Source: a virus
Taxonomy: Duplodnaviria; Heunggongvirae; Uroviricota; Caudoviricetes
IMG/VR virus record: IMGVR_UViG_2874920711_000012
Location: 1-33,220 of that record
Reading direction: 5' to 3' (one strand)
Length of the DNA stretch: 33,220 nt
Part shown: positions 1 to 15,756 of the stretch, piece by piece
Layout of the letters: each line of letters opens with the position of its first letter
Position numbering within the stretch: the first letter of the stretch is position 1
Program-made: the position numbers and the translations under genes
The notes under the pieces: model-generated
Seen by the model: the letters and a program-made list of their open reading frames with translations, nothing else
Told to the model about the DNA's origin: nothing
Databases searched by the model: none

Positions 1-41
1 ATGGACTGGCAAAAGTGTAGCGGTATTAAGCGCAGCTATTT
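1..41 (+). mobile_element. IS630 terminal segment (partial copy, body lies upstream of the window)
   Basis: Positions 1-41 are the exact inverted complement of the terminus of the complete IS630 at 23547-23589, followed by TA (42-43). Encodes the same transposase C-terminal peptide MDWQKCSGIKRSYL. Confidence 0.7.
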
Positions 42-43
42 AG

Positions 44-279
44 ATAAATGCAGAGATGATTTGGAAAGTATCTTTTCTAAAAATCTTGTTTTGACTATCG
101 ATGTTCTTTTTAACAGAAAGAGTGGGGCAACCTTAAGACATAAATTAGCACATGGTAATTTATATACTAATGCTTGTTACGATGAAACAACGACATATGC
201 ATGCATCCTGATTTTCTTTCTGTGTGCTTATCCTCTCCTACCATATTTTGATACTGTTTTTGAACAGGGCTCTGTTTGA
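44..279 (+). pseudogene. 3' fragment of an AT-rich cargo gene truncated by IS630; contains an Rx4H (HEPN-like) motif RHKLAH
   Basis: Open frame continues from the IS630 end to a stop at 279; low GC versus the phage backbone; lies just upstream of cos at the P2 old/tin-type locus. Only the C-terminal ~78 codons remain in the window. Confidence 0.45.
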
Positions 280-430
280 TAACGTATACGTTGAGGCATA
301 AAACCTATGCATACTTAGCTGCATCAATTTGCACGAGGTATTTCAGTATGCATTTTCTGCGTAATAGTAGGGATTGCTTGGTTTGGTAGTTGTAATTCAA
401 CTGCATTCAAACCGACCCATGAAGCGGGCG

Positions 431-449
431 GGCGAGGCGGGGAAAGCAC
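431..449. other. cos: P2-type cos site (19-nt cohesive end sequence GGCGAGGCGGGGAAAGCAC)
   Basis: Exact match to the recalled P2 cohesive-end sequence, located immediately beyond the 3' end of Q as in P2. Confidence 0.75.
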
Positions 450-618
450 TGCGCGCTGGCGGTGGTGCTGATTTTATTTTTTCAGCGTCTCAGCGCGTCG
501 TGACGGCGCTTAGTCTGCCCGTTGGGGTGTTGGTGTGTCTGCGGGCTGTTTTGTGCTGTGGTGAGCGTGTGAGGGCGTGATGACGGGATGTAAAAAAGCC
601 GCCCGCAGGCGGCGATGT

Positions 619-1653
619 TCAGCCGTTGTCAGTGTCCAGTGAGTAGTTTTTAAAGCGGATGACCTCCTGACCGAGCCAGCCGTTTATCTCGCGGATCCTG
701 TCCTGTAACGGGATAAGCTCATTGCGGACAAAGACCTTTGCCACTTTCTCAATATCACCCAGCGACCCGACGTTCTCCGGCTTGCCGCCCATCAACTGAA
801 AGGGGATGCGGTGCGCGTCAAGCAGGTCAGCGGCGCTGGCTTTTTTGATATTAAAAAAATCGTCCTTCGTTGCCACTTCACTGAGCGGGATAATTTTAAT
901 GCCGTCGGCTTTTCCCTGTGGGGCATAGAGAAACAGGTTTTTAAAGTTGTTGCGGCCTTTCGACTTCACCATGTTTTCGCGAAGCGTTTCGATATCGTTG
1001 CGATCCTGCACGGCATCAGTGACGTACATGATATATCCGGCATGAGCGCCGTTTTCGTAATACTTGCGGCGGAACAGCGTGGCCGACTCATTCAGCCAGG
1101 CAGAATTAAGGGCGCTGAGATATTCCGGCAGACCGTACAGCTCCTGATTAATATCCGGCTCCAGCAGGTGAAACACGGATCCGGGCGCGAAGGCTGTCGG
1201 CTCGTTAAAGGACGGCACCCACCAGTAAACATCCTCCTCCACGCCACGGCGGGTATATTTTGCCGGTGAGGTTTCCAGTCTGATGACCTTACCGGTGGTG
1301 CTGTAACGCTTTTCCAGAAACGCATTACCGAACACCAGAAAATCCAGCACAAAGCGGCTGAAATCCTGCTGGGACAGCCACGGGTGCGGGATAAACGTTG
1401 AAGCCAGAATATTACGTTTGACGTAAATCGGTGAGCTGTGATGCACGGCAGCACGCAGGCTTTTTGCCAGACCGGTAAAGCTGATTGGTGGCTCATACCA
1501 TCTGCTGTTACTGATGCATTCGACGTAATCCAGAATGTCACGGCGGTCGAGTACCGGCACCGGCTCACCAAAGGTGAATACCTCCATTTTCGGGGCGCTG
1601 GCGGTCATTGTTTTTGCCGCAGGTTGCGGTGTTTTCCCTTTTTTCTTGCTCAT
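619..1653 (-). CDS. Q: Portal protein gpQ
   Basis: 344-aa ORF whose sequence and position (next to cos, downstream of P) match the P2 portal protein as recalled. Confidence 0.9.
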   Translation of the reverse strand: MSKKKGKTPQPAAKTMTASAPKMEVFTFGEPVPVLDRRDILDYVECISNSRWYEPPISFTGLAKSLRAAVHHSSPIYVKRNILASTFIPHPWLSQQDFSRFVLDFLVFGNAFLEKRYSTTGKVIRLETSPAKYTRRGVEEDVYWWVPSFNEPTAFAPGSVFHLLEPDINQELYGLPEYLSALNSAWLNESATLFRRKYYENGAHAGYIMYVTDAVQDRNDIETLRENMVKSKGRNNFKNLFLYAPQGKADGIKIIPLSEVATKDDFFNIKKASAADLLDAHRIPFQLMGGKPENVGSLGDIEKVAKVFVRNELIPLQDRIREINGWLGQEVIRFKNYSLDTDNG

Positions 1654-1714
1654 CAGTAAAACTCCAGAATGGTGGATGTCAGCGGAGTGCTGATACCGGC
1701 GGTGAGTGGCTCAT

Positions 1715-3424
1715 TTAACAGGGCGTGCATGGTCGCCCAGGCGAGGTCGGCGTGGCTGGCTTCCTCGCTGCGGCTGGCCTCATAGGTGGCCTGCGTCCGC
1801 TGCTGGTCATGGTCTTGCGGATAGCCATGAACGAGCTGGTGATGTCGGTGGCGCTGACGTCATATTCCAGACAGCCACGGCGGATAACGTCTTTTGCCTT
1901 GAGCACCATTGCGGTTTTCATTTCCGGCGTGTAGCGGATGTCGCGCGCGGCGGGATAGAACGAGCGCACAAGCTGGAACACGCCGACACCGAGGCCGGTG
2001 GCATCAATACCGATGTATTCGACGTTGTATTTTTCGGTGAGTTTGCGGATGGATTCCGCCTGGGTGGCAAAGTCCATACCTTTCCACTGGTGACGCTCAA
2101 GTATTCTGAATTTGCCACCGGCCACCACCGGCGGTGCCAGTACCACGCATCCGGCGCTGTCGCCACGGTGTGACGGGTCGTAACCAATCCATACCGGTCG
2201 GGAGCCGAACGGATTGGCGGCAAACGGCGCATAGTCTTCCCATTCTTCCAGCGTGTCGACCATGCAGCGTTGCAGCTCCTCGAACGGGAATACCGATGCC
2301 TTGTCGTCAACAAATTCACACATGAACAGGTTTTTAAAATCGTCGGCGCTGTTTTCGCGTTTAAGCGGCTCAATGTCGAACAGCGTGCAGCCACCTTTCA
2401 GGGCGTCCTCAATGGTGACAATCTGCCGCCACTGGCCGTCCGCACAGAGAAGCCCACCGGCAAGGGCGTTATGACTGATGTCGATTTCCACGCGTTCGGC
2501 GGCGCTGGCGCGTCCCCGGTTAAACAGTTCACCCGACCAGAACGGGTAGGCGTCGTGCGCCAGCGTGGACGGGGTGGAGAAATAGGTCGAGCGCAGGTGA
2601 CTCTGTGAGGCCATACCTGATGCCATCTTACGCAGTACCTGAAAATTCGGGATCCAGAACATCTCGTCGACGTACAGGTCGCCGTTATGGCTCTGCGCGG
2701 TGTTGGAGTTGGTGCCGAGAAAAATCAGTTTTGCGCCGTTATTGCCCAGGACAATCGGGTCACCGGTCAGGTCAACGTCAACCAGCCGGGCAAAGGCGAT
2801 GATGTATTCGCGGAACACATACGCCTGTGTTTTACTGGCCGACAGAAAAATCTGGTTATGACCGGTTTTCAGGGCGCGCAGCAGCGCCTCGCGGGAAAAA
2901 TAAAACGTCGCGCCAATCTGGCGGGATTTCAGGATATCGCGGATGCGGTGCTCAAGCCCGGCGCGATACCAGTGCAACTGATATTCGAAAGACTGCTCAA
3001 AGAAAATCTGCTCCAGCTTTTCGATGGCTTCGTCACTGAAAAAATTCTTTTTCGGTTTGCGACGCCCGCCTTTGTTGCGGTTAGCGACGTTCGGATTAAG
3101 GTCTGCCTCGTTGCCGGTCTGACTGTAGCGGTTGACCCGCGCCAGTCGTTCAATCTGGCGTCCCAGCAGGTCAATTTCCTTGAAGTCACCGCCGGTTTTC
3201 TGCGGTTTGATAATGAGCTGGGTCAGCCGCGCTTCCAGACTCATTTCGACACGGCTGATGGGGGCAACGCTGTCCCAGCCGTCGCGCTGTTTCCAGCTCT
3301 GCACCGTCGGGCGTTTCATCTGCAACATGGCGGCAATCTGCGGCACGGAAAACCCCTGCCAGTACAGCAGCGCCGCCTGACGACGCGGGTCGTGCAAAAG
3401 AGTGGTGTCTGTGGTGATGGTCAT
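1715..3424 (-). CDS. P: Terminase large (ATPase) subunit gpP, with an apparent C-terminal frameshift
   Basis: N-terminus MTITTDTTLLHDPRRQAALLYWQGF matches P2 gpP as recalled. The last ~25 codons of the ORF look out of frame, so the true stop is probably near 1656. Confidence 0.85.
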   Translation of the reverse strand: MTITTDTTLLHDPRRQAALLYWQGFSVPQIAAMLQMKRPTVQSWKQRDGWDSVAPISRVEMSLEARLTQLIIKPQKTGGDFKEIDLLGRQIERLARVNRYSQTGNEADLNPNVANRNKGGRRKPKKNFFSDEAIEKLEQIFFEQSFEYQLHWYRAGLEHRIRDILKSRQIGATFYFSREALLRALKTGHNQIFLSASKTQAYVFREYIIAFARLVDVDLTGDPIVLGNNGAKLIFLGTNSNTAQSHNGDLYVDEMFWIPNFQVLRKMASGMASQSHLRSTYFSTPSTLAHDAYPFWSGELFNRGRASAAERVEIDISHNALAGGLLCADGQWRQIVTIEDALKGGCTLFDIEPLKRENSADDFKNLFMCEFVDDKASVFPFEELQRCMVDTLEEWEDYAPFAANPFGSRPVWIGYDPSHRGDSAGCVVLAPPVVAGGKFRILERHQWKGMDFATQAESIRKLTEKYNVEYIGIDATGLGVGVFQLVRSFYPAARDIRYTPEMKTAMVLKAKDVIRRGCLEYDVSATDITSSFMAIRKTMTSSGRRPPMRPAAARKPATPTSPGRPCTPC

Positions 3425-3597
3425 GAATACCTCGCCGTGATGAATACACGGCAAGGCTACTGAGTCGCGCCCCGCGATTCGCTAAGGTGCTGTTGTGTCA
3501 GTGATAAGCCATCCGGGACTGATGGCGGAGGATGCGCATCGTCGGGAAACTGATGCCGACATGTGACTCCTCTAATCACTATTCAGGACTCCTGACA
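3425..3597. promoter_or_regulatory. Divergent P/O intergenic region, expected to hold the Ogr-dependent late promoters
   Basis: Position between divergently transcribed P and O, as in P2; no promoter motif was confidently identified in the sequence. Confidence 0.3.
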
Positions 3598-4452
3598 ATG
3601 GCAAAAAAAGTCTCAAAATTCTTTCGTATCGGCGTTGAGGGTGACACCTGTGACGGGCGTGTCATCAGTGCGCAGGATATTCAGGAAATGGCCGAAACCT
3701 TTGACCCGCGTGTCTATGGTTGCCGCATTAACCTGGAACATCTGCGCGGCATCCTGCCTGACGGTATTTTTAAACGTTATGGCGATGTGGTCGAACTGAA
3801 GGCCGAAAAGATTGATGACGATTCGGCGCTGAAAGGCAAATGGGCGCTGTTTGCGAAAATCACCCCGACCGATGACCTTATCGCGATGAACAAGGCCGCG
3901 CAGAAGGTCTACACCTCAATGGAAATTCAGCCGAACTTTGCCAACACCGGCAAATGTTATCTGGTGGGGCTGGCCGTCACCGATGACCCGGCAAGCCTCG
4001 GCACGGAATATCTGGAGTTCTGCCGCACGGCAAAACACAACCCTCTGAACCGCTTCAAATTAAGCCCTGAGAACCTTATTTCAGTGGCAACGCCCGTTGA
4101 GCTGGAATTTGAAGACCTGCCTGAAACCGTGTTCACCGCCCTGACCGAAAAGGTGAAGTCCATTTTTGGCCGCAAACAGGCCAGCGATGACGCCCGCCTG
4201 AATGACGTGCATGAAGCGGTGACCGCTGTTGCTGAACATGTGCAGGAAAAACTGAGCGCCACTGAGCAGCGCCTCGCTGAGATGGAAACCGCCTTTTCCG
4301 CACTTAAGCAGGATGTGACTGACAGGGCGGATGAAACCGGCCAGGCATTCACCCGCCTGAAAAACAGTCTCGACAGCACCGAAAGTCTGACCCAGCAGCG
4401 CCGCAGCAAAGCCACCGGCGGTGGCGGTGACGCCCTGATGACGAACTGCTGA
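3598..4452 (+). CDS. O: Capsid scaffold protein gpO
   Basis: Starts MAKKVSKFFRIGVEGDTCDGRVISAQDIQEMAETFDPRVYG; P2 gpO-like sequence and synteny (the ORF-track start at 3532 is an upstream extension). Confidence 0.9.
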   Translation: MAKKVSKFFRIGVEGDTCDGRVISAQDIQEMAETFDPRVYGCRINLEHLRGILPDGIFKRYGDVVELKAEKIDDDSALKGKWALFAKITPTDDLIAMNKAAQKVYTSMEIQPNFANTGKCYLVGLAVTDDPASLGTEYLEFCRTAKHNPLNRFKLSPENLISVATPVELEFEDLPETVFTALTEKVKSIFGRKQASDDARLNDVHEAVTAVAEHVQEKLSATEQRLAEMETAFSALKQDVTDRADETGQAFTRLKNSLDSTESLTQQRRSKATGGGGDALMTNC

Positions 4453-4525
4453 CCGGCGTCAGTCAGTCCGGGAAAACCTTCACGATTAACCCTTAATTTC
4501 AGGAAAAACTATGCGCCAGGAAACC

Positions 4526-5950
4526 TAATGCCGATCAGTTAAGGATCAGTTGACCGATCCAGTGGCTGTGTAAGAATCCGGAAACGCTCACTTGTTTCCG
4601 GATTTTTTTATGCACATTGGACAGGCTCTTGATCTGGTATCCCGTTACGATTCTCTGCGTAACCCACTGACTTCTCTGGGGATTACCTCGACCCCGAACT
4701 CATCTCTCGTTGCCTTGCCGAATCAGGTACTGTAACGCTACGCAAGCGCCGTCTTCCCCTCGAAATGATGGTCTGGTGTATTGTTGGCATGGCGCTTGAG
4801 CGTAAAGAACCTCTTCACCAGATTGTGAATCGCCTGGACATCATGCTGCCGGGCAATCGCCCCTTCGTTGCCCCCAGTGCCGTTATTCAGGCCCGCCAGC
4901 GCCTGGGAAGTGAGGCTGTCCGCCGCGTGTTCACGAAAACAGCGCAGCTCTGGCATAACGCCACGCCGCATCCGCACTGGTGCGGCCTGACCCTGCTGGC
5001 CATCGATGGTGTGTTCTGGCGCACACCGGATACACCAGAGAACGATGCAGCCTTCCCCCGCCAGACACATGCCGGGAACCCGGCGCTCTACCCGCAGGTC
5101 AAAATGGTCTGCCAGATGGAACTGACCAGCCATCTGCTGACGGCTGCAGCCTTCGGCACGATGAAGAACAGCGAAAATGAGCTTGCTGAGCAACTTATAG
5201 AACAAACCGGCGATAACACTCTGACGTTAATGGATAAAGGTTATTACTCACTGGGACTGTTAAATGCCTGGAGCCTGGCGGGAGAACACCGCCACTGGAT
5301 GATACCTCTCAGAAAGGGAGCGCAATATGAAGAGTTCAGAAAACTGGGTAAAGGCGATCATCTGGTGAAGCTGAAAACCAGCCCGCAGGCACGAAAAAAG
5401 TGGCCGGGACTGGGAAATGAAGTGACAGCCCGCCTGCTGACCGTGACGCGCAAAGGAAAAGTCTGCCATCTGCTGACGTCGATGACGGACGCCATGCGCT
5501 TCCCCGGAGGAGAAATGGCGGATCTGTACAGTCATCGCTGGGAAATCGAACTGGGATACAGGGAGATAAAACAGACGATGCAACTGAGCAGGCTGACGCT
5601 GAGAAGTAAAAAGCCGGAGCTTGTGGAGCAAGAGCTGTGGGGTGTCTTACTGGCTTATAATCTGGTGAGATATCAGATGATTAAAATGGCGGAACATCTG
5701 AAAGGTTACTGGCCGAATCAACTGAGTTTCTCAGAATCATGCGGAATGGTGATGAGAATGCTGATGACATTGCAGGGCGCTTCACCGGGACGTATACCGG
5801 AGCTGATGCGCGATCTTGCAAGTATGGGACAACTTGTGAAATTACCGACGAGAAGGGAAAGGGCCTTCCCGAGAGTGGTAAAGGAGAGGCCCTGGAAATA
5901 CCCCACAGCCCCGAAAAAGAGCCAGTCAGTTGCTTAACTGACTGGCATTA
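4526..5950 (+). mobile_element. IS4 (1425 bp) with 13-bp target-site duplication GCGCCAGGAAACC
   Basis: Terminal inverted repeats TAATGCCGATCAGTTAAGG at 4526 and its complement ending 5950; identical 13-bp direct repeats at 4513-4525 and 5951-5963. Confidence 0.9.
4610..5937 (+). CDS. IS4 transposase (apparent N-terminal frameshift near 4672)
   Basis: ATG at 4610 ([20 protein letters not shown]) shifts frame in a G-run; the remainder (ORF 4765-5937) matches IS4 transposase as recalled. Confidence 0.85.
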
Positions 5951-7025
5951 GCGCCAGGAAACCCGCTTTAAATTTAATGCCTACCTGTCCCGTGTTGCCG
6001 AACTGAACGGCATCGACGCCGGTGATGTGTCGAAAAAATTCACCGTTGAACCGTCGGTCACCCAGACCCTGATGAACACCATGCAGGAGTCCTCTGACTT
6101 TCTGACCCGCATCAACATTGTGCCGGTCAGCGAAATGAAAGGGGAAAAAATTGGCATCGGTGTCACCGGCTCCATCGCCAGCACCACCGACACCGCCGGT
6201 GGCACTGAGCGTCAGCCGAAGGACTTCTCGAAGCTGGCGTCTAACAAGTACGAATGCGACCAGATTAACTTCGATTTTTATATCCGCTACAAAACGCTTG
6301 ACCTGTGGGCGCGTTATCAGGATTTCCAGCTCCGTGTCCGTAACGCCATTATCAAACGCCAGTCCCTTGATTTCATCATGGCCGGTTTTAACGGCGTGAA
6401 GCGTGCCGAAACTTCTGACCGCAGCAGCAATCCGATGTTGCAGGATGTGGCGGTCGGCTGGTTGCAGAAATACCGCAATGAAGCCCCGGCGCGCGTGATG
6501 AGCAAGGTCACTGACGAGGAAGGGCGCACCACCTCTGAGGTTATCCGCGTGGGTAAGGGCGGCGATTATGCCAGCCTTGATGCACTGGTGATGGATGCGA
6601 CCAACAACCTGATTGAACCGTGGTATCAGGAAGACCCTGACCTTGTGGTGATTGTGGGACGTCAGCTACTGGCGGACAAGTATTTCCCCATCGTCAACAA
6701 AGAGCAGGACAACAGCGAAATGCTGGCCGCTGATGTCATCATCAGCCAGAAACGCATCGGTAACCTGCCGGCGGTACGCGTCCCGTACTTCCCGGCGGAT
6801 GCGATGCTCATCACGAAGCTGGAAAACCTGTCCATCTACTACATGGATGACAGCCATCGCCGCGTGATTGTGGAAAACCCGAAACTCGACCGCGTGGAGA
6901 ACTACGAGTCAATGAACATTGATTACGTGGTGGAAGACTATGCAGCCGGTTGTCTGGTGGAGAAAATTAAGGTCGGTGATTTCTCCACACCGGCTAAAGC
7001 GACCGCAGAGCCGGGAGCGTAACCG

Positions 7026-7318
7026 ATGACGAGTCCCGCACAGCGCCACATGATGCGGGTCTCGGCAGCGATGACCGCGCAGCGGGAAGCAGCCCGCTGC
7101 GACATGCAACTGTCTATGAGCAGATGCTGGTTAAGCTCGCCGTAGACCAGCGCACACTGAAAGCAATTTATTCAAAAGAGCTGAAGGCCGCGAAAAAACG
7201 CGAACTGCTGCCGTTCTGGTTGCCGTGGGTGAATGGCGTGCTGCCGCACGGCACCGCCGTCGAACTGCCCGACGTTCAGACCGCGCCCGTGGCTGAAACT
7301 GTCAATCTGTGGGAGTAA
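7026..7318 (+). pseudogene. M: Deletion remnant: 5' part of terminase small subunit gene M fused to the 3' end of tail gene X; L absent
   Basis: Starts MTSPAQRHMMRVSAAMTAQREAA (gpM-like), shifts frame at a C-run, and ends …LPHGTAVELPDVQTAPVAETVNLWE (gpX C-terminus as recalled). Only 296 bp separate the N stop from the Y start, where P2 has M+L+X (about 1.5 kb). Confidence 0.6.
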
Positions 7319-7321
7319 CGC

Positions 7322-7602
7322 ATGACAGCAGAAGAAAAAAGCGTTCTGTCGCTTTTCATGATTGGGGTGCTGATTGTTGTCGGCAAGGTGCTTGCCGGTG
7401 GTGAACCCATCACCCGCGTCTGTTTATCGGGCGCATGTTGCTCGGTGGTTTTGTCTCGATGGTTGCCGGTGTTGTTCTGGTGCAGTTTCCTGACCTGTCA
7501 CTGCCTGCGGTGTGCGGCATTGGCTCCATGCTGGGTATCGCCGGTTATCAGGTGATTGAGATTGCCATTCAGCGCCGCTTTAAGGGCAGGGGGAAACCGT
7601 AA
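7322..7602 (+). CDS. Y: Holin gpY (apparent frameshift near 7410)
   Basis: MTAEEKSVLSLFMIGVLIVVGKVLAGGEPIT… hydrophobic holin-like start; frame breaks at a C-run and the alternate frame runs to the stop overlapping the K start. Confidence 0.75.
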
Positions 7603-8099
7603 TGCCGGTTATTAACACGCATCAGAATATCGCCGCCTTTCTCGACATGCTGGCCGTGTCCGAAGGGACGGCGAATCATCCGCTGACGAAAAAACGGGGC
7701 TATGACGTGATAGTCACCGGACTGGACGGAAAGCCGGAAATTTTCACCGACTACAGTGACCACCCGTTCGCGCATGGCCGACCGGCGAAGGTGTTTAACC
7801 GTCGCGGTGAAAAATCCACGGCCTCCGGTCGCTATCAGCAGCTTTACCTGTTCTGGCCGCACTACCGCAAACAGCTTGCCCTGCCGGATTTCAGTCCGTT
7901 GTCACAGGACAGACTTGCCATTCAGTTGATCCGTGAACGCGGTGCACTGGATGACATCCGGGCGGGACGCATTGAGCGCGCCATTTCACGCTGTCGCAAT
8001 ATCTGGGCGTCCCTGCCGGGTGCCGGTTACGGTCAGCGTGAGCATTCACTGGAAAAACTGGTCACCGTCTGGCGTACCGCTGGCGGCGTACCTGCTTAA
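7602..8099 (+). CDS. K: Endolysin gpK
   Basis: 165-aa ORF in the P2 lysis cassette position after Y; sequence consistent with P2 gpK as recalled. Confidence 0.9.
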   Translation: MPVINTHQNIAAFLDMLAVSEGTANHPLTKKRGYDVIVTGLDGKPEIFTDYSDHPFAHGRPAKVFNRRGEKSTASGRYQQLYLFWPHYRKQLALPDFSPLSQDRLAIQLIRERGALDDIRAGRIERAISRCRNIWASLPGAGYGQREHSLEKLVTVWRTAGGVPA

Positions 8100-8113
8100 A
8101 CGGAGTAAACACC

Positions 8114-8539
8114 ATGAAGAAATTATCCCTTTCACTGATGCTGAACGTGTCGCTGGCGCTGATGCTGGCACTGTCCCTGATTTACCCGCAGAGCGTGGCC
8201 GTCAATTTTGTCGCCGCCTGGGCGATTCTGGCGACGGTTATCTGTGTGGTTGCCGGTGGTATTGGCGTGTATGCCACTGAGTATGTACTGGAACTCTACG
8301 GGCGGGAGCTGCCGCCGGAATCGCTGGCCGTGAAGATTGTCACGTCGCTGTTTTTGCAGCCGGTGCCGTGGCGCAGACGGGCGGCGGCTCTGGTTGTGAT
8401 GGTGGCGACATTTATCTCGCTGGTCGCTGCCGGGTGGATTTTTACCGCGCTGATTTATCTCGTAGCGTCGCTGTTTTTCCGGCTGATACGCACGGCCTGC
8501 CGTCAGCGTCTTGAGGGGCGGGAACCATGTCAAGGCTGA
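8114..8539 (+). CDS. lysA: LysA, multi-TM lysis accessory protein
   Basis: 141-aa strongly hydrophobic ORF directly after K. Confidence 0.8.
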   Translation: MKKLSLSLMLNVSLALMLALSLIYPQSVAVNFVAAWAILATVICVVAGGIGVYATEYVLELYGRELPPESLAVKIVTSLFLQPVPWRRRAAALVVMVATFISLVAAGWIFTALIYLVASLFFRLIRTACRQRLEGREPCQG

Positions 8540-8952
8540 TGATTGTACTGATTGTGTTGTTATCGCTGGCGGTGGCGGGTCTGTTTCTGGTGAAACACAA
8601 AAATGCCAGCCTGCGCGCTTCGCTGGACAGGGCGAACAGCGTCGCCAGCGGGCAGCAGACGACCATCACCATGCTGAAAAATCAGCTTCATGTTGCGCTC
8701 ACCAGGGCAGAAAAAAACGAGCTGGCGCAGGTGGCACTGCGTCAGGAACTGGAAAACGCCGCGAAGCGTGAAGCACAGCGCGAGAAAACCATCACGAGGT
8801 TACTCAATGAAAACGAAGATTTTCGCCGCTGGTACGGTGCTGACCTGCCTGATGCTGTGCGCCGGTTGCACCAGCGTCCGGCCTGCACCGACGCCAGTGA
8901 TTGTCGCCAACGCCTGCCCGAAAGTGAGTCTTTGCCCGATGCCGGGCAGTGA
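8527..8952 (+). CDS. lysB: LysB, Rz-like inner-membrane spanin
   Basis: N-terminal TM segment followed by a charged, likely coiled-coil region; position after lysA. Confidence 0.8.
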   Translation: MSRLMIVLIVLLSLAVAGLFLVKHKNASLRASLDRANSVASGQQTTITMLKNQLHVALTRAEKNELAQVALRQELENAAKREAQREKTITRLLNENEDFRRWYGADLPDAVRRLHQRPACTDASDCRQRLPESESLPDAGQ

Positions 8953-9097
8953 CCCGCAGACGAACGGCGATTTAAGTGCTGATATCAGGCAGCTTGAGAA
9001 CGCGCTGGCACGCTGTGCCAGCCAGGTAAAAATGATTAAACACTGTCAGGACGAAAACGATGCTCAAACCCGACAGCCTGCGCAGGGCGTTGACTGA
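8807..9097 (+). CDS. lysC: LysC, Rz1-like outer-membrane lipoprotein spanin, partly embedded in lysB in another frame
   Basis: MKTKIFAAGTVLTCLMLCAGCTS… signal peptide with lipobox-like LCAGC; overlaps the lysB 3' end out of frame. Confidence 0.65.
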   Translation: MKTKIFAAGTVLTCLMLCAGCTSVRPAPTPVIVANACPKVSLCPMPGSDPQTNGDLSADIRQLENALARCASQVKMIKHCQDENDAQTRQPAQGVD

Positions 9098-9527
9098 TGC
9101 CGTCACGGTGCTGAAAACTAACCCCGATATGCTGCGGATATTCGTGGATAACGGGAGTATTGCCTCCACACTGGCGACGTCGCTGTCGTTCGAAAAGCGT
9201 TACACGCTCAATGTGATTGTGACCGACTTTACCGGTGATTTTGACCTGCTCATCGTGCCGGTGCTGGCGTGGCTGCGGGAAAATCAGCCCGACATCATGA
9301 CCACCGACGAAGGCCAGAAAAAGGGCTTCACGTTTTATGCAGACATCAACAATGACAGCAGCTTTGATATAAGCATCAGCCTGATGCTGACCGAGCGCAC
9401 GCTGGTCAGTGAGGTGGACGGCGCGCTGCATGTGAAGAATATCCCTGAACCTCCGCCGCCGGAGCCGGTTACCCGCCCGGTGGAGCTTTATATCAATGGC
9501 GAACTGGTGAGCAAGTGGGATGAATGA
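9060..9527 (+). CDS. R: Tail completion protein gpR
   Basis: 155-aa ORF, P2 gpR-like sequence and position. Confidence 0.85.
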   Translation: MLKPDSLRRALTDAVTVLKTNPDMLRIFVDNGSIASTLATSLSFEKRYTLNVIVTDFTGDFDLLIVPVLAWLRENQPDIMTTDEGQKKGFTFYADINNDSSFDISISLMLTERTLVSEVDGALHVKNIPEPPPPEPVTRPVELYINGELVSKWDE

Positions 9528-9972
9528 GTTTAAGCGTTTTGAAGACCGGCTGGCCGGACTGACTGAATCGCTGTCACCGTCAGGGCGTCGGCGACTGAGC
9601 GCCGAACTGGCGAAACGTCTGCGTCAGAGTCAGCAGCGTCGGGTGATGGCACAGAAAGCCCCGGACGGCACACCCTACGCGCCACGTCAGCAGCAGAGCG
9701 CCAGAAAAAAGACCGGTCGCGTTAAGCGAAAAATGTTTGCGAAACTTATCACCAGTCGTTTTTTGCATATCCGCGCCAGCCCGGAACAGGCATCAATGGA
9801 GTTTTACGGCGGGAAGTCACCGAAAATCGCCAGTGTGCATCAGTTCGGTCTGTCGGAAGAAAACCGGAAAGACGGTAAGAAAATTGATTATCCGGCGCGT
9901 CCTCTGCTCGGCTTTACCGGTGAGGATGTGCAGATGATTGAAGAGATTATCCTGGCTCACCTGAATCGTTAG
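9520..9972 (+). CDS. S: Tail completion protein gpS
   Basis: 150-aa ORF, P2 gpS-like sequence and position. Confidence 0.85.
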   Translation: MNEFKRFEDRLAGLTESLSPSGRRRLSAELAKRLRQSQQRRVMAQKAPDGTPYAPRQQQSARKKTGRVKRKMFAKLITSRFLHIRASPEQASMEFYGGKSPKIASVHQFGLSEENRKDGKKIDYPARPLLGFTGEDVQMIEEIILAHLNR

Positions 9973-10051
9973 CTTTAATCATCTGAGAATATAAGATAGA
10001 AATCAATTGATTAGCATAATTTATTTTGAATTTTCATGTTAATAAATAAAA

Positions 10052-10073
10052 GGCCAGTTATTGGCCTTTTATC
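10052..10073. terminator. Bidirectional intrinsic terminator between S and the cargo gene at 10075-10494
   Basis: Hairpin GGCCAGTTATTGGCC flanked by A/T runs on both sides (…ataaataaaa GGCCAgttaTTGGCC ttttatc…). Confidence 0.6.
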
Positions 10074-10074
10074 A

Positions 10075-10494
10075 TTACTTTCCATTTTTTAATGAATTGA
10101 TTAACGATGCTATTTGCTCAATGCCATCAAATGTAGATGGTATCTTATCATCGGATAGCATGATGTTTGAAAATACTACGTCTTCGAATTTTGAAAGCGC
10201 TTCCGGATTGTTTTTCCTTATCTCTGAGGAATAGTCGCTATAACTCTGAATGAACTGACAAAGGCTCTTTCTGAGTTCTATTTGCATAATCTGAGTTCGT
10301 AACGATATATGATTTAGCAGTACAACTCTAAAGTAATACATGAAAATCAATGTAACTGATGCAAAAGGTAGTGCTGACATAAAATATGTGGCAGCATTTG
10401 TCGTTTCGAGAGCTGGTAATTTATGCATTCCATAGTATATCAGCTGGGAGGGAATGATTATAGCCAAGATGATAAGAATTATTCTTGATAGCAT
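10075..10494 (-). CDS. Hypothetical two-TM membrane protein (139 aa), downstream gene of the S-V cargo module
   Basis: Intact ORF on the strand opposite the phage late genes; two N-terminal hydrophobic segments (RIILIILAIIIPSQLIYYGM and YFMSALPFASVTLIFMYYF); AT-rich. Function unknown. Confidence 0.6.
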   Translation of the reverse strand: MLSRIILIILAIIIPSQLIYYGMHKLPALETTNAATYFMSALPFASVTLIFMYYFRVVLLNHISLRTQIMQIELRKSLCQFIQSYSDYSSEIRKNNPEALSKFEDVVFSNIMLSDDKIPSTFDGIEQIASLINSLKNGK

Positions 10495-10580
10495 GATTGC
10501 ACTTTCTTTTTTTTGCCAAGTGAATTAAAGCCTTCAAACAATCCAACAAAATTAAATGCGACCTCATACCCTTTTAATGA

Positions 10581-11147
10581 CTATTTGATTGACTCTATTT
10601 TGGCATGTTGCTCCTTTAAGAAGGAGTCGCACTTTTCGAAAAATTGACGCCCTTCGTTTAAACTATCAATGTATTTTTTATATGTGTCAACATTGCTGGA
10701 GCTTAAAACTTCTTTAACCATTGCTAATGGCAGTTCTCTAAGAGAAAAGTCTATCTGTGCTCTGCTCCGCTCATCGAATTCATTATAGTTATACAGAGCA
10801 AAATCCTTGATGGTTCTTAGTGGTGAAAAGTGAGACTCTATTTCCGGAGAGAGAATGCTTGGTTCAATGATAAAGCTAAAAAAGCAAGTGAATATAAGGT
10901 TGATGCTGTTGTTATCTTCTCCCTTTTTTCTTAAGAAACTTTTAAAGGTGTCGCCAATCATAGCAATGTTGTGCTGGGATTTTTTGTCCCAATCTTCAGG
11001 GTTTTCGGAAATGAAGTTTATTGCTTGAGCAATTATTTTGTTTCTGTTTGATTCAAAGTTTGTGCCGGGAGTCAGCGTGTTCAAAAAGACCAGATAATCT
11101 TTGAACAATTCTTTCATTGTTTCTGACGAGAAAAAGTAAGTACTCAT
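10581..11147 (-). CDS. Hypothetical soluble protein (~188 aa), upstream gene of the S-V cargo module
   Basis: AT-rich ORF co-oriented with 10075-10494, 86 bp upstream of it. Start chosen at MSTYFF (11147); the ORF track extends to 11243, which would overlap the V start. No recognised motif. Confidence 0.5.
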   Translation of the reverse strand: MSTYFFSSETMKELFKDYLVFLNTLTPGTNFESNRNKIIAQAINFISENPEDWDKKSQHNIAMIGDTFKSFLRKKGEDNNSINLIFTCFFSFIIEPSILSPEIESHFSPLRTIKDFALYNYNEFDERSRAQIDFSLRELPLAMVKEVLSSSNVDTYKKYIDSLNEGRQFFEKCDSFLKEQHAKIESIK

Positions 11148-11233
11148 AATGGATTTTGTTGTCCCTTGTTGTTCTGTGCACCAGAAATCGTGGTGTGATT
11201 TACTTCGAGATTGTACAGAATCATTATTATCGA

Positions 11234-11863
11234 ATGAATGCACAATACAATGAAATTCTTCGCTTTATACGCAATATGATTCGCACTGGCATTATTGTCG
11301 AAACCGACCTTAATGCCGGTCGCTGCCGTGTGCAGACCGGCGGCATGTGCACCGACTGGCTTCAGTGGCTGACCCATCGCGCCGGACGTTCGCGCACATG
11401 GTGGGCACCTTCCGTGGGGGAACAGGTGCTGATTCTGGCCGTGGGCGGTGAACTCGACACGGCGTTCGTTCTGCCGGGGATTTATTCCTGCGATAACCCC
11501 GCGCCGTCTGCGTCGGCGGATGCCCTGCATATCCGTTTCCCTGACGGGGCGGTGATTGAGTATGAACCCGAAACCAGTGCACTCACGGTAAGCGGAATTA
11601 AAACGGCCAGCGTGACGGCTTCTGATTCTGTTACTGCCACGGTGCCGGTGGTCATGGTGAAAGCGTCAACCCGCATCACCCTGGACACCCCGGAGGTGGT
11701 CTGCACCAACAGACTGATTACCGGCACGCTGGAAGTGCAGAAGGGCGGGACGATGCGCGGCAACATTAAACATACCGGCGGTGAACTCTCATCAAACGGT
11801 AAGGTACTGCATACCCATAAACACCCCGGCGACAGCGGCGGCACAACCGGGAGTCCTCTATGA
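11234..11863 (+). CDS. V: Baseplate spike protein gpV
   Basis: …LRFIRNMIRTGIIVETDLNAGRCRVQTGGMCTDWLQW… P2 gpV-like; start at ATG 11234. Confidence 0.9.
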   Translation: MNAQYNEILRFIRNMIRTGIIVETDLNAGRCRVQTGGMCTDWLQWLTHRAGRSRTWWAPSVGEQVLILAVGGELDTAFVLPGIYSCDNPAPSASADALHIRFPDGAVIEYEPETSALTVSGIKTASVTASDSVTATVPVVMVKASTRITLDTPEVVCTNRLITGTLEVQKGGTMRGNIKHTGGELSSNGKVLHTHKHPGDSGGTTGSPL

Positions 11864-12207
11864 CAGCGCGTTATCTTGGAATGAATCGCAGTGATGGCCT
11901 GACGGTCACTGACCTTGAGCATATCAGCCAGAGTATCGGCGATATCCTGCGCACACCGGTCGGCTCACGGGTGATGCGTCGTGATTACGGCTCGTTGCTG
12001 GCGTCAATGATTGACCAGCCGCAGACCCCGGCGCTTGAGTTGCAGATTAAGGTCGCCTGTTACATGGCGGTGCTGAAATGGGAACCCCGCGTCACCCTGT
12101 CATCCGTCACCACGGCGCGCAGCTTTGATGGGCGAATGACGGTCACGTTAACCGGCCAGCACAACGACACCGGCCAGCCACTTTCGTTAACCATCCCTGT
12201 GAGTTGA
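11860..12207 (+). CDS. W: Baseplate protein gpW
   Basis: 115-aa ORF, P2 gpW-like sequence and position. Confidence 0.85.
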   Translation: MTARYLGMNRSDGLTVTDLEHISQSIGDILRTPVGSRVMRRDYGSLLASMIDQPQTPALELQIKVACYMAVLKWEPRVTLSSVTTARSFDGRMTVTLTGQHNDTGQPLSLTIPVS

Positions 12208-12211
12208 AACC

Positions 12212-13120
12212 ATGCCGATTATCGACCTGAACCAGCTACCCGCACCGGATGTGGTCGAGGAGCTGGACTTTGAAACCATTCTCGCCGAACGCAAGGCGAC
12301 ACTGATTTCCCTTTACCCGGAAGACCAGCAGGAGGCGGTCGCCCGTCCCCTGACGCTGGAATCTGAGCCTCTCGTCAAACTGCTGGAGGAAAATGCTTAT
12401 CGTGAGCTTATCTGGCGTCAGCGTGTGAATGAGGCCGCACGGGCGGTGATGCTGGCCTGTGCCGCCGGTAATGACCTTGATGTGATTGGTGCCAATTACA
12501 ACACCACGCGTCTGACTATCACCCCGGCAGATGATTCGACTATCCCGCCGACACCGGCAGTGATGGAGTCTGACACGGATTATCGTCTGCGTATTCAGCA
12601 GGCGTTTGAAGGCTTAAGCGTCGCCGGGTCGGTGGGAGCCTATCAGTATCATGGTCGCAGTGCTGACGGGCGTGTCGCGGATATCTCTGTCACCAGTCCG
12701 TCTCCGGCCTGCGTCACTATCTCCGTGCTGTCACGTGAAAATAACGGCGTCGCATCCGAAGACCTGCTGGCCGTGGTGCGTAACGCCCTTAATGGCGAGG
12801 ACGTCAGGCCGGTGGCCGACCGCGTGACCGTGCAGTCTGCCGCCATTGTTGAATATCAGATAAACGCCACACTTTACCTTTACCCAGGTCCCGAAAGCGA
12901 ACCCATCCGCGCTGCTGCCGTGAAAAAACTGGAAGCGTACATCACGGCACAGCACCGGCTGGGGCGCGACATCCGTCTGTCTGCCATTTATGCCGCTTTG
13001 CATGTGGAAGGCGTGCAGCGTGTCGAACTGACTGCACCGCTGGCTGACATCGTGCTCAACAGTACGCAGGCGTCTTTCTGTACTGAATACCGCGTCGTGA
13101 CCGGAGGCTCGGATGAGTGA
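12212..13120 (+). CDS. J: Baseplate protein gpJ
   Basis: 302-aa ORF, P2 gpJ-like sequence and position. Confidence 0.9.
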   Translation: MPIIDLNQLPAPDVVEELDFETILAERKATLISLYPEDQQEAVARPLTLESEPLVKLLEENAYRELIWRQRVNEAARAVMLACAAGNDLDVIGANYNTTRLTITPADDSTIPPTPAVMESDTDYRLRIQQAFEGLSVAGSVGAYQYHGRSADGRVADISVTSPSPACVTISVLSRENNGVASEDLLAVVRNALNGEDVRPVADRVTVQSAAIVEYQINATLYLYPGPESEPIRAAAVKKLEAYITAQHRLGRDIRLSAIYAALHVEGVQRVELTAPLADIVLNSTQASFCTEYRVVTGGSDE

Positions 13121-13643
13121 TTCGCGACTGCTGCCGACCGGCTCATCACCGCTTGAAGTCGCCGCCGCAAAAGCCTGTGCGGAAATTGAAAAAACACCGG
13201 TCAGTATTCGTGAGCTGTGGAACCCGGACACCTGCCCGGCAAATCTGCTGCCGTGGCTGGCGTGGGCGTTTTCGGTCGACAGGTGGGATGAAAAGTGGCC
13301 GGAAGCGACCAAACGCGCCGTTATTCGCGATGCCTATTTCATCCACTGTCATAAAGGCACTATAGGTGCAATCCGGCGTGTGGTGGAGCCGCTAGGCTAT
13401 CTCATCAACGTGACGGAGTGGTGGGAAACCAGTGACCCGCCGGGCACCTTCCGGCTTGATATTGGTGTACTGGAAAGTGGCATCACAGAGGCAATGTATC
13501 AGGAAATGGAACGGCTGATTGCTGATGCCAAACCTGCAAGCCGCCACCTTATTGGCCTGAACATTACCCGGGACATTCCCGGCTACCTGTTCGCCGGTGG
13601 TGTGGCTTATGACGGCGATGTAATTACGGTTTACCCCGGATAA
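13113..13643 (+). CDS. I: Baseplate protein gpI
   Basis: 176-aa ORF, P2 gpI-like sequence and position. Confidence 0.85.
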   Translation: MSDSRLLPTGSSPLEVAAAKACAEIEKTPVSIRELWNPDTCPANLLPWLAWAFSVDRWDEKWPEATKRAVIRDAYFIHCHKGTIGAIRRVVEPLGYLINVTEWWETSDPPGTFRLDIGVLESGITEAMYQEMERLIADAKPASRHLIGLNITRDIPGYLFAGGVAYDGDVITVYPG

Positions 13644-13654
13644 GTGAGGAATAA

Positions 13655-15756
13655 TGAGCACAAAATTCAGAACCGTTATCACCACTGCCGGTGCAGCAAA
13701 GCTGGCAGCGGCAACCGCACCGGGAGGCGGAAGGTCAACATTACCACGATGGCCGTCGGGATGGCGGTGGTAAATTGCCTGTCCCGGATGCCGGACAGAC
13801 CGGGCTTATCCATGAAGTCTGGCGACATGCGCTGAACAAAATCAGCCAAGACAAACGAAACAGTAATTATATTATCGCAGAGCTGGTTATTCCGCCGGAG
13901 GTGGGCGGTTTCTGGATGCGTGAGCTTGGCCTGTACGATGATGCGGGAACGTTAATTGCCGTGGCGAACATGGCCGAAAGTTATAAGCCAGCTCTTGCCG
14001 AAGGCTCAGGGCGTTCGCAGACCTGCCGTATGGTCATCATCGTCAGCAGTGTGGCCTCAGTGGAGCTGACCATTGACACCACAACGGTGATGGCGACGCA
14101 GGATTACGTTGATGACAAAATTGCAGAGCACGAACAGTCACGACGTCACCCGGACGCCTCGCTGACCGCAAAAGGTTTTACTCAGTTAAGCAGTGCGACC
14201 AACAGCATGTCTGAAACACTGGCTGCAACGTCGAGAGCGGTAAAGACCGCCTATGACCTTGCTAACGGGAAATATACCGCGCAGGATGCCACCACCGCGC
14301 GAAAAGGCCTTGTTCAGCTCAGTAGTGCGACTAACAGCACGTCTGAAACGCTCGCCGCAACGCCGAAAGCATATGACCTTGCTAACGGGAAATACACTGC
14401 ACAGGATGCCACAACAGCGCGAAAAGGCCTTGTTCAGCTCAGTAGCGCCACCAACAGTGATTCTGAAACGCAGGCTGCAACGCCAAAGGCGGTGAAGTCT
14501 GCCTATGACAATGCTGAAAAACGTCTTCAGAAAGATCAGAACGGTGCGGATATCCCTGATAAAGAACGCTTCCTGAGTAACATTAATGTTTACAGCAAAG
14601 GTGAAGTGGATAAGAAAAAGGGAATGCGAAAGTATTCGTTTGCAGCCCCTGCAAATGTCGTTGCCGGGAAGTGGTACCCCGTTATCTTTCGCCGTGCTGC
14701 CAGCCTTTCAGGAGAAATGGCATCCCGCGTTGTTATTTCCACTGGTTGTTATAACGGCGATTATGTAATGAATAACTGCGAGTTTAATGGCATGGTTATG
14801 CCCGGAGGCTGGACTGATCGTGGTTCATATGCGGCAGGTTATTACTGGACGTATCAGACTAATGAGCGTTCAATCCATTCCATTGTTACAAGCCTGAAAG
14901 ATGATGATGTATGTAGTGTTTTTTATGTTGAAGCCAGAGCTTTCCCTGTACAAATTCTTGCAGAGGAAGGGCTAACGGTTATTGTTCCGACAGAGGATTA
15001 TGTCGTCGGTCAAACGACATATAAGTGGGGGGCAACTAATCCCGCTACAGAAAGCACGAACGCACAGGCTATTCTGGATTTTAAAAATGGACGTGGTTAT
15101 TACTGTTCACATCCATTTATTTCCAGCCTTTCAGGAAATGCTGCAACAGCAACGAAGTTAGCGAACGCAAGAAATATTAATGGTGTCAGATTTGATGGCT
15201 CTGCCGATATAAATATTAATACACTGGTATCCAGAAACCGTGTTACTGCATTAGGTGGGAGCGTAAAGGGGACACCAGGTATTCAGATGTATGAGGCATA
15301 CAACAATGGCTACCCAACAGCCTATGGTAATGTGCTTCATCTCACTGGCGTAACCGCAGTAGGAGAGGGTGAGTTACTTATTGGTTGGAGTGGAACCAGC
15401 GGTGCTCATGCTCCGGCATATATTCGTTCCCGACGAGATACCACAGATGCTAACTGGTCTGGATGGGCGCAACTATATACAACTGCTCATAAACCTCAGC
15501 GGGAGATGTTGGTGCATACACCAAAACTGAGTCAGATTCACGTTATGTGAGAGACATGCGGCTGGGCGGTGCATCTACATATAAACCAGCAAATAATGGT
15601 ACTACATGGACGCATCAGGCTCCGTCAGGTTGCGTATATACCGGCATTATTGTTCAGGATACCGGCTCAAACTCTGCCGATAACATTGGTGGCGTATATT
15701 ACAGACCGGTGCAGAAATACATTAACGGGACATGGTATAACGTGGTGCAGGTATAA
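13655..15756 (+). CDS. H: Tail fiber protein gpH (apparent frameshifts near 13725, 13760 and 15545)
   Basis: ATG 13655 encodes MSTKFRTVITTAGAAKLAAATAPG (gpH N-terminus); frame breaks in G-runs; contains SSATNS…AYDLANGKYTAQDATTARKGLVQL repeats; AT-rich distal (receptor-binding) part continues into ORF 15547-15756. Confidence 0.8.
14170..14480 (+). repeat. Coding tandem repeats (~120-nt unit, about 3 copies) inside the tail fiber gene
   Basis: Repeated peptide QLSSATNS(x)SETLAATPKA…YDLANGKYTAQDATTARKGLV visible three times in the gpH translation. Confidence 0.6.

What the first reader, a model, noticed from the sequence alone, without database searches (positions are those of the whole stretch)
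4511..7022. Major capsid gene N split by IS4 after codon 5
IS4 (4526-5950) has intact inverted repeats and an exact 13-bp duplication (GCGCCAGGAAACC) that separates the N start codon and RBS from the rest of the ORF. That should abolish capsid production. The IS4 transposase itself has an N-terminal frame break.
Basis: seen in the sequence. Interest (0 to 1): 0.45.

Follow-up and report, generated by a model that had tools for sequence, protein, structure and literature searches.

The report
IS4 insertion splitting prophage capsid gene
A standard IS4 jumping gene sits after codon 5 of the major capsid gene of a P2-like prophage remnant in a Shigella-type chromosome, but the prophage is dead for several other reasons, so this is ordinary genome decay.

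Summary
A canonical IS4 lies at 4526-5950, 1425 bp long and 99.9% identical to annotated IS4. It has the usual imperfect 18-bp terminal inverted repeats and an exact 13-bp target duplication, GCGCCAGGAAACC, at 4513-4525 and 5951-5963. It splits a P2-type N gene after codon 5. Removing IS4 and one repeat copy restores an intact 357-aa ORF 99.4% identical to P2 gpN.

The insertion is inherited, not a misassembly. The same junction is in AKNA01000058.1 and in short-read contigs of other strains. The window comes from NCBI CP026824.1, and one relative is S. dysenteriae 1012.

The interpretation needs two corrections.

- N::IS4 is only one of several lethal lesions. The relatives share a 1256-bp deletion of M'-L-X' and frameshifts in P and FII. 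The source strain has also lost the whole early region from int to A.
- The IS4 transposase frame break is a G5-to-G4 contraction. It is one of about 19 one-base G/C-run contractions seen only in this assembly, and the sister copy at the same site is intact. It is most likely a long-read consensus error.

This is an ordinary finding of low interest.

The parts
4501..4528 (+). Orphaned 5' end of capsid gene N: Shine-Dalgarno AGGA (4501-4504), ATG (4511-4513), codons 1-5 (MRQET), then an in-frame TAA supplied by the first three bases of IS4 (4526-4528).
   Evidence: The alignment to P2 stops at P2 4094, which is window 4525.
4513..4525 (.). Left copy of the 13-bp target-site duplication GCGCCAGGAAACC.
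   Evidence: family D12, 100% identity. P2 4082-4094 is present on both sides of IS4.
4526..5950 (+). IS4 (canonical E. coli/Shigella IS4), 1425 bp, in the same orientation as N. Left inverted repeat 4526-4543, right inverted repeat 5933-5950.
   Evidence: 99.8-99.9% identity over 100% of the query to annotated IS4 elements of 1426 bp; two differences from an intact copy; terminal inverted repeat. Pfam PF13006 Nterm_IS4 and PF01609 DDE_Tnp_1.
4572..4607 (+). IS4 leader hairpin followed by a run of 7 T, immediately upstream of the transposase ATG. It looks like a terminator and is expected to stop read-through from the P2 late promoter, which would be polar on M-S.
   Evidence: I4, 14-nt arms, 93% complementary; centroid -18.8 and MFE -22 kcal/mol, z = -5.2, 0 of 200 shuffles as stable. 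The terminator function is inferred.
4610..4735 (+). 5' piece of the IS4 transposase gene (41 codons plus stop). It goes out of frame at the G4 run 4678-4681, which is G5 in intact IS4.
4765..5937 (+). Remaining IS4 transposase ORF, 390 aa from the first in-frame ATG. It lacks the N-terminal 52 aa of the 442-aa protein.
5951..5963 (.). Right copy of the 13-bp target-site duplication. With the last TA of IS4, its first base forms a TAG (5949-5951) in the N frame.
5952..7022 (+). Promoterless, start-less remainder of major capsid gene N (codons 2-357 plus TAA), otherwise undamaged. The first possible in-frame start is GTG 6027 (codon 27).
   Evidence: 99.4% aa identity to P2 gpN residues 2-357 with 0 gaps; the reconstructed ORF is 357 aa. 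PF05125 Phage_cap_P2. ORF 6027-7022.
7026..7315 (+). Context: truncated terminase small-subunit gene M fused to the 3' end of X across a 1256-bp deletion (P2 5376-6631). The junction lies at 7238-7243 on a 6-bp microhomology, GTGCTG. This is a second, independent lethal lesion in the same operon.
   Evidence: The same deletion is in relatives L024, L025 and L026 and in one IMG/VR contig.

Best explanation
**What it is.** A canonical IS4 transposed into the first codons of major capsid gene N of a P2-like (Peduovirus) prophage. The prophage is integrated between yegR and yegQ/trhP in a Shigella-type Escherichia chromosome (NCBI CP026824.1).

**How the insertion arose.** The staggered cut and repair typical of this DDE transposase duplicated 13 bp of target. 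The site has the A-run/T-run signature (AAA-N20-TTT) that IS4 favours.

**Effect on N.**
- The insertion leaves the ribosome-binding site and ATG attached to a 5-codon stub that ends at IS4's own TAA.
- The other 352 codons have no start codon, and a TAG lies immediately upstream in frame. Full-length gpN cannot be made.
- The terminator-like hairpin at the IS4 left end should also be polar on the rest of the late O operon. This step is inferred.

**Age and context.** The event is old and vertically inherited within a lineage that includes relatives of S. dysenteriae 1012. It is one of several independent hits on a prophage remnant that is beyond rescue:
- a P frameshift;
- the deletion of M'-L-X';
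- an FII frameshift;
- four further IS elements;
- in this strain, loss of the entire early region.

**The transposase frame break.** It is most likely a homopolymer consensus error of this particular assembly, not a real mutation.
For: **Identity and anatomy of IS4**
- establish the element, its ends, its duplication and its transposase domains.
- Target duplications of 11-14 bp were seen at 23 other IS4 insertions collected here.
- 8 of those 23 sites match AAA-N20-TTT. Only 27 of 31,782 positions of the repaired window do (0.08%), and the N site is one of them.

**Gene identity and the split**
- Searches identify N and locate the break.

**Inheritance**
- One colinear 14.5-kb alignment at 99.7% identity crosses both IS4 junctions in AKNA01000058.1.
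- Short-read contigs from other assemblies begin inside the IS4 right end and continue into N codon 2.
- One IMG/VR contig carries both the N::IS4 junction and the deletion junction.
- One relative is S. dysenteriae 1012 (accession AAMJ identified in PMC2974192).

**Other lesions**
-.

**Artefact reading of the frame break**
- In 9.1 kb, the window differs from its closest relative (L025) by 1 substitution and 4 one-base contractions (3 in G/C runs of four, 1 in a run of three), all in the window.
- In about 20 kb, the source differs from CP027027.1 by 3 substitutions and 12 one-base deletions, 11 of them in G/C runs.
- FI, T, U, Y and the M stub are in frame in the relatives.
- Runs of G/C of 4 or more were contracted in 12 of 41 cases, against 1 of 13 A/T runs of 6 or more. 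This is not what replication slippage gives, since slippage rises steeply with run length (established knowledge). It is typical of long-read consensus errors.
Against: - Loss of capsid protein was not measured. An N-terminally truncated product from GTG 6027 cannot be formally excluded.
- The terminator function of the IS4 hairpin is inferred from structure only. The simple terminator scan did not list it.
- Artefact reading: the contractions are not spread evenly. There are 12 of 41 in the prophage/IS part against 0 of 25 G/C runs in the adjoining 9.6 kb of host DNA. A uniform sequencing error rate does not predict this, and I could not explain it.
- The order of N::IS4 relative to the other shared lesions could not be resolved. 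Every genome I found with one lesion has the others.
- A position-weight model built from 16 independent IS4 sites ranks the N site only in the top 3.4% of positions. It is a permissible site, not a hot one.
Confidence: 0.9

Rival explanations
1. The IS4 transposase frameshift, and the other one-base G/C-run contractions, are real mutations of this strain. This IS4 copy would then be a non-autonomous element with intact ends that can move only if another IS4 copy supplies transposase.
For: The contractions are confined to prophage and IS DNA: 12 of 41 G/C runs against 0 of 25 in the neighbouring host genes. That is what relaxed selection on dead DNA would look like. The sequence as deposited does contain G4.
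Against: - All of about 19 events are -1, and nearly all are in G/C runs of 4-5. Long A/T runs are almost untouched.
- They accompany only 1-3 substitutions over 9-20 kb relative to the closest strains.
- Relatives with the same long-dead prophage have not accumulated them.
- Selection could not purge frameshifts from non-essential host genes such as mdtBCD on that timescale (inference).
Confidence: 0.15
2. The IS4 in N is an assembly artefact: a repeat copy placed wrongly by the assembler.
For: IS4 is multi-copy in such genomes, up to 32 places per genome in E. coli. This assembly also has consensus errors.
Against: - A perfect 13-bp target duplication flanks the element.
- The identical junction is present in an independent draft assembly (AKNA01000058.1) and an IMG/VR contig.
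- Several short-read contigs end inside the IS4 right end next to N codon 2.
Confidence: 0.02
3. Capsid protein is still made. Translation would restart at GTG 6027 (codon 27) and give a protein close to mature N*, since gpO normally removes residues 1-31. On this reading the insertion is not a null allele.
For: - ORF 6027-7022 is open for 331 aa.
- P2 gpN is normally processed by removal of its first 31 residues (PMC7552001).
Against: - There is no convincing Shine-Dalgarno at the right spacing before GTG 6027.
- No promoter-like site was found at the IS4 right end.
- The IS4 leader hairpin should terminate late-promoter transcripts.
- Residues 1-14 of gpN form a helix that contacts neighbouring capsomers in the procapsid (PMC7552001).
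- Even if the protein were made, there is no L and no intact M or P.
Confidence: 0.03
4. One reading: an otherwise functional P2-like prophage that was knocked out by this single IS4 hit.
For: N apart from the insertion, and most other late genes, remain 97-100% identical in protein sequence to P2.
Against: - The M'-L-X' deletion and the P and FII frameshifts are shared with relatives.
- The early region from int to A is missing in the source strain.
- Four more IS elements lie in the window.
Confidence: 0.02

Closest known systems
IS4 of Escherichia coli K-12 / Shigella (type element of the IS4 family, IS4 subgroup; ISfinder IS4)
   Same: - 99.9% nucleotide identity over the full length.
- Same imperfect 18-bp terminal inverted repeats.
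- A single DDE transposase gene with the Nterm_IS4 and DDE_Tnp_1 domains.
- Same leader hairpin.
- Target duplication in the known 11-13 bp range.
- Target with an A-run upstream and a T-run downstream.

PMC2266710 notes striking target-arm specificity in this subgroup and expansion of the IS4 family in Shigella.
   Different: It is one G shorter (1425 against 1426 bp), which breaks the transposase frame in this assembly. It also has one Leu-to-Phe substitution at 5335. The first difference is probably not real.
Bacteriophage P2 gene N (major capsid protein gpN, Pfam PF05125) and the P2 late O operon
   Same: The gene order is Q-P / O-N-M...S, as in P2. Nucleotide identity is about 97%, and gpN residues 2-357 are 99.4% identical in protein sequence. 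The cos site, attR and ogr lie where P2 has them.
   Different: N is split after codon 5. M is truncated, L is absent and X is truncated. P and FII are frameshifted. The early region is absent, and the cargo regions in the orf30 and fun(Z) positions are unrelated to those of P2.
IS-riddled cryptic prophages and pseudogenes of Shigella genomes
   Same: There are multiple IS families within one 33-kb prophage remnant: IS4, IS2, an IS3-family element, an IS630-family element and an IS4-family fragment. There are also IS-associated deletions. This matches the known IS expansion and genome decay of Shigella (PMC2266710 and its references 44-47).
   Different: Nothing substantive. This is one more instance.

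Membership tests
IS4 (type element, IS4 family) | Length of about 1426 bp and near-identity to the reference element. | tested here: met
   1425 bp, at 99.8-99.9% identity over 100% of its length to annotated IS4 copies. Two differences from an intact copy.
IS4 (type element, IS4 family) | Imperfect 18-bp terminal inverted repeats starting TAATGCC. | tested here: met
   Arms at 4526-4543 and 5933-5950, identical to those of the intact reference copy.
IS4 (type element, IS4 family) | Direct target duplication of 11-13 bp. | tested here: met
   Exact 13-bp duplication. The range was 11-14 bp at 23 other IS4 sites collected here.
IS4 (type element, IS4 family) | A single intact DDE transposase ORF (442 aa; 448 aa as annotated in RefSeq). 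| tested here: not met
   The G5-to-G4 change at 4678-4681 splits the ORF into 41 and 390 aa. The domains PF13006 and PF01609 are present. The break is probably an assembly error: the sister copy at the same site is intact.
IS4 (type element, IS4 family) | Target preference: A-rich left arm and T-rich right arm (AAA-N20-TTT as I recall it from the older literature; PMC2266710 reports strong arm specificity). | tested here: met
   The N site reads AAAAActat[GCGCCAGGAAACC]cgcTTTAAA. The strict pattern occurs at 0.08% of positions in the repaired window and at 8 of 23 other IS4 sites. A weight-matrix score places the site only in the top 3.4%.
P2-family major capsid protein gpN (PF05125) | Sequence homology across the whole protein. 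| tested here: met
   99.4% aa identity over residues 2-357. PF05125 is recorded for the 331-aa ORF.
P2-family major capsid protein gpN (PF05125) | A continuous ORF with its own start codon downstream of scaffold gene O. | tested here: not met
   The start codon and codons 1-5 are 1438 bp away from codon 6, with stop codons on both sides of IS4.
Functional (inducible) P2-like prophage | A complete set of essential genes: int, cox, A, B, Q, P, O, N, M, L, the tail genes and the lysis genes. | tested here: not met
   - N is split; M, L and X are deleted in whole or in part.
- P and FII are frameshifted in the relatives as well.
- Of the early region from int to A, only the last 45 int codons remain, and there is no gpA upstream in the source strain.

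The most novel reading that the evidence does not exclude
The roughly 19 one-base contractions of G/C runs, including the one in the IS4 transposase, would be real. They are restricted to prophage and IS DNA and stop exactly at attR. On that reading, some strain-specific process frameshifts mobile DNA preferentially while sparing the adjacent host genes.
Probability: 0.04. Interest if true: 0.55.

Novelty: already known. Interest (0 to 1): 0.07.

Why it matters
It matters little beyond annotation. The locus should be labelled as a multiply defective P2-like remnant with N::IS4, not as an inducible prophage. The shared N::IS4 junction could serve as a lineage marker for this Shigella clade.

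The practical lesson is that the single-base frame breaks in this assembly should not be read as pseudogenes without checking the reads. That includes the break in the IS4 transposase.

Tried and rejected
1. **N::IS4 junction in other collections.** I searched the left junction in 5,426 complete E. coli genomes and found no record spanning it. The two longest partial hits were the unrelated yhiJ/yhiM IS4 site. The exact junction in the one-genome-per-species collection gave 0 hits.
2. **Order of events.** I tried to date N::IS4 against the M-L-X deletion. No E. coli genome has the deletion junction. The only IMG/VR contig with either junction has both. The order remains unresolved.
3. **IS4 target model.** A weight matrix from 16 independent IS4 sites gave the consensus AAAAAAACGC|CACC...GGTG|GCGTTTTTTT. 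The N site ranks 1065 of 31,742, so it is not a hot spot by that model.
4. **Tailocin idea.** I considered that the head module is dead while the tail and lysis modules are kept. I rejected it because FII is frameshifted in every relative, X is truncated, and the lysis, R and S genes lie downstream of the polar IS4.
5. **Repeat-limited polishing.** This could explain why the contractions are confined to the prophage. It is not supported for the tail region, because short-read contigs of relatives run uninterrupted from FI into host DNA, which implies a single copy there. It is left unexplained.
6. **Literature search for the accession.** Searching for CP026824, GCA_002949875 and CP027027 found no paper naming them. 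The species name of the source is therefore inferred from relatives only.
7. **YegQ look-up.** The protein is too widespread to identify the source strain.

Full report
**1. The observation**

Reading 4300-7200 shows the P2 N start: AGGA at 4501-4504 and ATG at 4511-4513. After ATG CGC CAG GAA ACC the sequence runs directly into TAATGCCGATCAGTTAAGG.

- The repeat search finds the exact 13-nt direct repeat GCGCCAGGAAACC at 4513-4525 and 5951-5963.
- It also finds the terminal inverted repeat at 4526-4543 and 5933-5950.
- The 1425-bp stretch 4526-5950 matches annotated 'IS4-like element IS4 family transposase' elements at 99.8-99.9% over its full length. Such elements occur in 2,687 of 5,426 complete E. 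coli genomes, and the matched elements are 1426 bp long.
- A base-by-base alignment to one intact copy shows two differences: one G missing from a G5 run, and a C-to-T change at 5335.

**2. What the surrounding DNA is**

The window is the late half of a P2-like prophage. Alignment to phage P2 (NC_001895) gives these colinear blocks:

| Window | P2 |
|---|---|
| 431-4525 | 1-4094 |
| 5951-7243 | 4082-5375 |
| 7238-9977 | 6632-9372 |
| 11270-14370 | 10350-13452 |
| 24779-31714 | 17433-24382 |

- All blocks are about 97% identical to P2. The last one ends in the attP core.
- P2 bases 4082-4094 appear on both sides of IS4, which is the target duplication.
- The host gene beyond attR is yegQ/trhP.
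- tblastn with every P2 protein finds one N only: residues 2-357 at 5952-7019, 99.4% identical, with no gaps.
- Deleting IS4 and one repeat copy restores a 357-aa ORF.
- The stub reads MRQET, then TAA from IS4. At the right junction, TAG (5949-5951) closes the N frame just before codon 2. No fusion protein can read into N.

**3. Origin and inheritance**

The exact 390-aa transposase fragment occurs in a single record, NCBI CP026824.1, a 4.97-Mb chromosome.

The look-up of the 331-aa N ORF gave these results:

- **AKNA01000058.1.** The window aligns to it in one block of 14.5 kb at 99.7% identity, straight across both IS4 junctions.
- **Short-read contigs from other assemblies.** They begin 27-74 nt inside the IS4 right end and continue into N.

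The look-up of the gpD protein finds the same prophage next to yegQ in S. dysenteriae 1012 (AAMJ; identified through PMC2974192), in CP027027.1 and in other records.

An IMG/VR contig also carries the junction. No complete E. coli genome does, and neither does any species-representative genome.

The insertion is therefore real, old and vertically inherited in a Shigella lineage. The IS4 copies in the two lineages differ at three substitutions. This is in line with the 0.15% divergence of the flanking DNA.

**4. Mechanism**

IS4 is a DDE transposon whose staggered target cleavage gives 11-13 bp duplications. I collected 23 other complete IS4 insertions with duplications from genome and viral contigs, and these had duplications of 11-14 bp.

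- Their targets share an A-run 3-5 nt upstream and a T-run downstream, often around a palindrome.
- The consensus from 16 independent sites is AAAAAAACGC|CACC...GGTG|GCGTTTTTTT.
- The N site reads AAAAActat[GCGCCAGGAAACC]cgcTTTAAA. It satisfies the strict AAA-N20-TTT pattern that I recalled from the older IS4 literature.
- That pattern is met by 8 of the 23 other sites, but by only 27 of 31,782 positions of the repaired window.
- The weight-matrix score of the N site is unremarkable, in the top 3.4%.
- PMC2266710 reports 'spectacular' target-arm specificity for this subgroup and expansion of the family in Shigella.

The consequence for N follows directly from the sequence: full-length gpN cannot be made. 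IS4 also carries a strong hairpin followed by U7 at 4572-4607 (z = -5.2). Because IS4 lies in the same orientation as the O operon, this should terminate late transcripts and be polar on the downstream genes. That step is inferred, not shown.

The only conceivable rescue is initiation at GTG 6027 (codon 27). This is close to the natural gpO cleavage site after residue 31 (PMC7552001). Three points make rescue unlikely:

- there is no suitable ribosome-binding site;
- there is no promoter-like site at the IS4 right end;
- the missing residues 1-14 form a helix used in procapsid contacts.

**5. The prophage is dead several times over**

Lesions shared with relatives, and therefore genuine:

- a 1256-bp deletion of P2 5376-6631, on a 6-bp microhomology, which fuses M codon ~73 to the end of X and removes L;
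- a frameshift at P codon ~545;
- a frameshift at FII codon 66, present in all five relatives examined, including short-read assemblies.

The window also holds four more IS elements in the region that replaces fun(Z): IS2, an IS4-family fragment, an IS3-family element and an IS630-family element.

Upstream of the window, the source strain has yegR, then the last 45 codons of int, then an IS630-family fragment, then the window start. The whole early region is gone there, whereas AKNA01000058.1 still has gpA.

N::IS4 is thus one lesion among many. Its order relative to the others could not be resolved.

**6. The transposase frame break**

Against P2, nearly all indels in the window are losses of one base from G or C runs of 4-5.

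- **Against the closest relative (L025), over 9.1 kb:** 1 substitution and 4 such contractions.
- **Against CP027027.1, over about 20 kb:** 3 substitutions and 12 one-base deletions, 11 of them in G/C runs.
- **Gene status in relatives:** Y, the M stub, H, FI, T and U are in frame.
- **The same IS4 in AKNA01000058.1:** it has G5 and a full-length transposase gene.
- **Run statistics:** 12 of 41 G/C runs of 4 or more are contracted, against 1 of 13 A/T runs of 6 or more.

This spectrum has three features: it goes in one direction only, it is specific to G/C, and it is insensitive to run length. That is typical of long-read consensus errors and not of replication slippage (established knowledge). 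I therefore rate the frame break as an artefact at about 0.8.

One thing is not explained. The contractions stop at attR, with 0 of 25 G/C runs contracted in the next 9.6 kb of host DNA. Repeat-limited polishing would explain this. However, the relatives' short-read contigs run from the tail genes into host DNA, which argues against a second copy of that region.

**7. Verdict**

This is the canonical IS4 doing what IS elements do in Shigella, inside a prophage remnant that was not viable anyway. Nothing about the element, the target or the mechanism is new, and interest is low.

Noticed in passing
window 7238-7243 (junction); P2 5376-6631 missing: A 1256-bp deletion on a 6-bp microhomology (GTGCTG) removes the 3' two-thirds of M, all of L and the 5' part of X. 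It leaves an in-frame M'::'X fusion, called as 97 aa in relatives. AKNA01000058.1, several short-read assemblies and one IMG/VR contig share it. No complete E. coli genome has it.
   Followed up: yes
window 7092, 7412, 13725, 13757, 21717, 22470, 23596, 24744, 25118, 25812, 26386, 27282, 28082, 28130, 28501, 30112, 31613 (plus 4678-4681): One-base contractions, almost all in G/C runs of 4-5, are absent from closely related assemblies. They break M, Y, H (a compensating pair), the IS3-family and IS630-family transposases, FI, FII, T and U. None occurs in the 9.6 kb of host DNA beyond attR. They are probably consensus errors, but the restriction to prophage and IS DNA is unexplained.
   Followed up: partly
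window 1790 (gene P, minus strand) and 26386-26388 (gene FII): These frameshifts are not homopolymer contractions, and relatives share them: P codon ~545 in AKNA01000058.1, and FII codon 66 in five relatives. They are genuine inactivating mutations of the large terminase and the tail tube.
   Followed up: yes
window 16821-18094; 19424-20203; 21473-22862; 23500-24597: Four further IS elements lie in the region that replaces P2 fun(Z): IS2 (orfA and orfB intact), an IS4-family transposase fragment, an IS3-family element and an IS630-family element. Their exact ends were not mapped.
   Followed up: partly
window 22807-23475 (minus strand): A 222-aa ORF in the P2 cargo hotspot matches the PADLOC candidate defence family PDC-M68A (E = 5e-24) and nuclease effector models. 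The E. coli counterpart is annotated DUF6650. Here the neighbouring IS3-family insertion appears to truncate it.
   Followed up: partly
window 1-279, and L023 1-1974 (upstream in CP026824.1): The 92-aa ORF at the window start is the C-terminal fragment of a 458-aa cargo gene that is intact in AKNA01000058.1. It gives a weak, sub-threshold DUF4209 hit, and PADLOC PDC-S39 at E = 3e-10. Upstream in the source strain lie an IS630-family fragment, the last 45 codons of P2 int, and yegR. The whole early region of the prophage has been deleted.
   Followed up: yes
window 14367, and 14370-15750: Tail-fibre gene H lacks 12 bp that are present in the two more distant relatives compared (AKNA01000058.1 and one short-read contig) but not in the closest one. 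Its C-terminal half is unrelated to P2 H. In AKNA01000058.1 and one short-read contig H is called at only 322 aa, in the former next to a transposase gene.
   Followed up: no
window 9978-11269 (ORF 10581-11243, minus strand): The P2 orf30 position holds an unrelated 188-220 aa ORF with no Pfam, NCBIfam or PADLOC match.
   Followed up: partly
loci L001, L032-L105 (IS4 insertion sites elsewhere): Sixteen independent IS4 target sites give a palindromic consensus, AAAAAAACGC|CACC...GGTG|GCGTTTTTTT, with 11-14 bp duplications. Many look like rho-independent terminators, which suggests that IS4 prefers terminator-like hairpins.
   Followed up: partly
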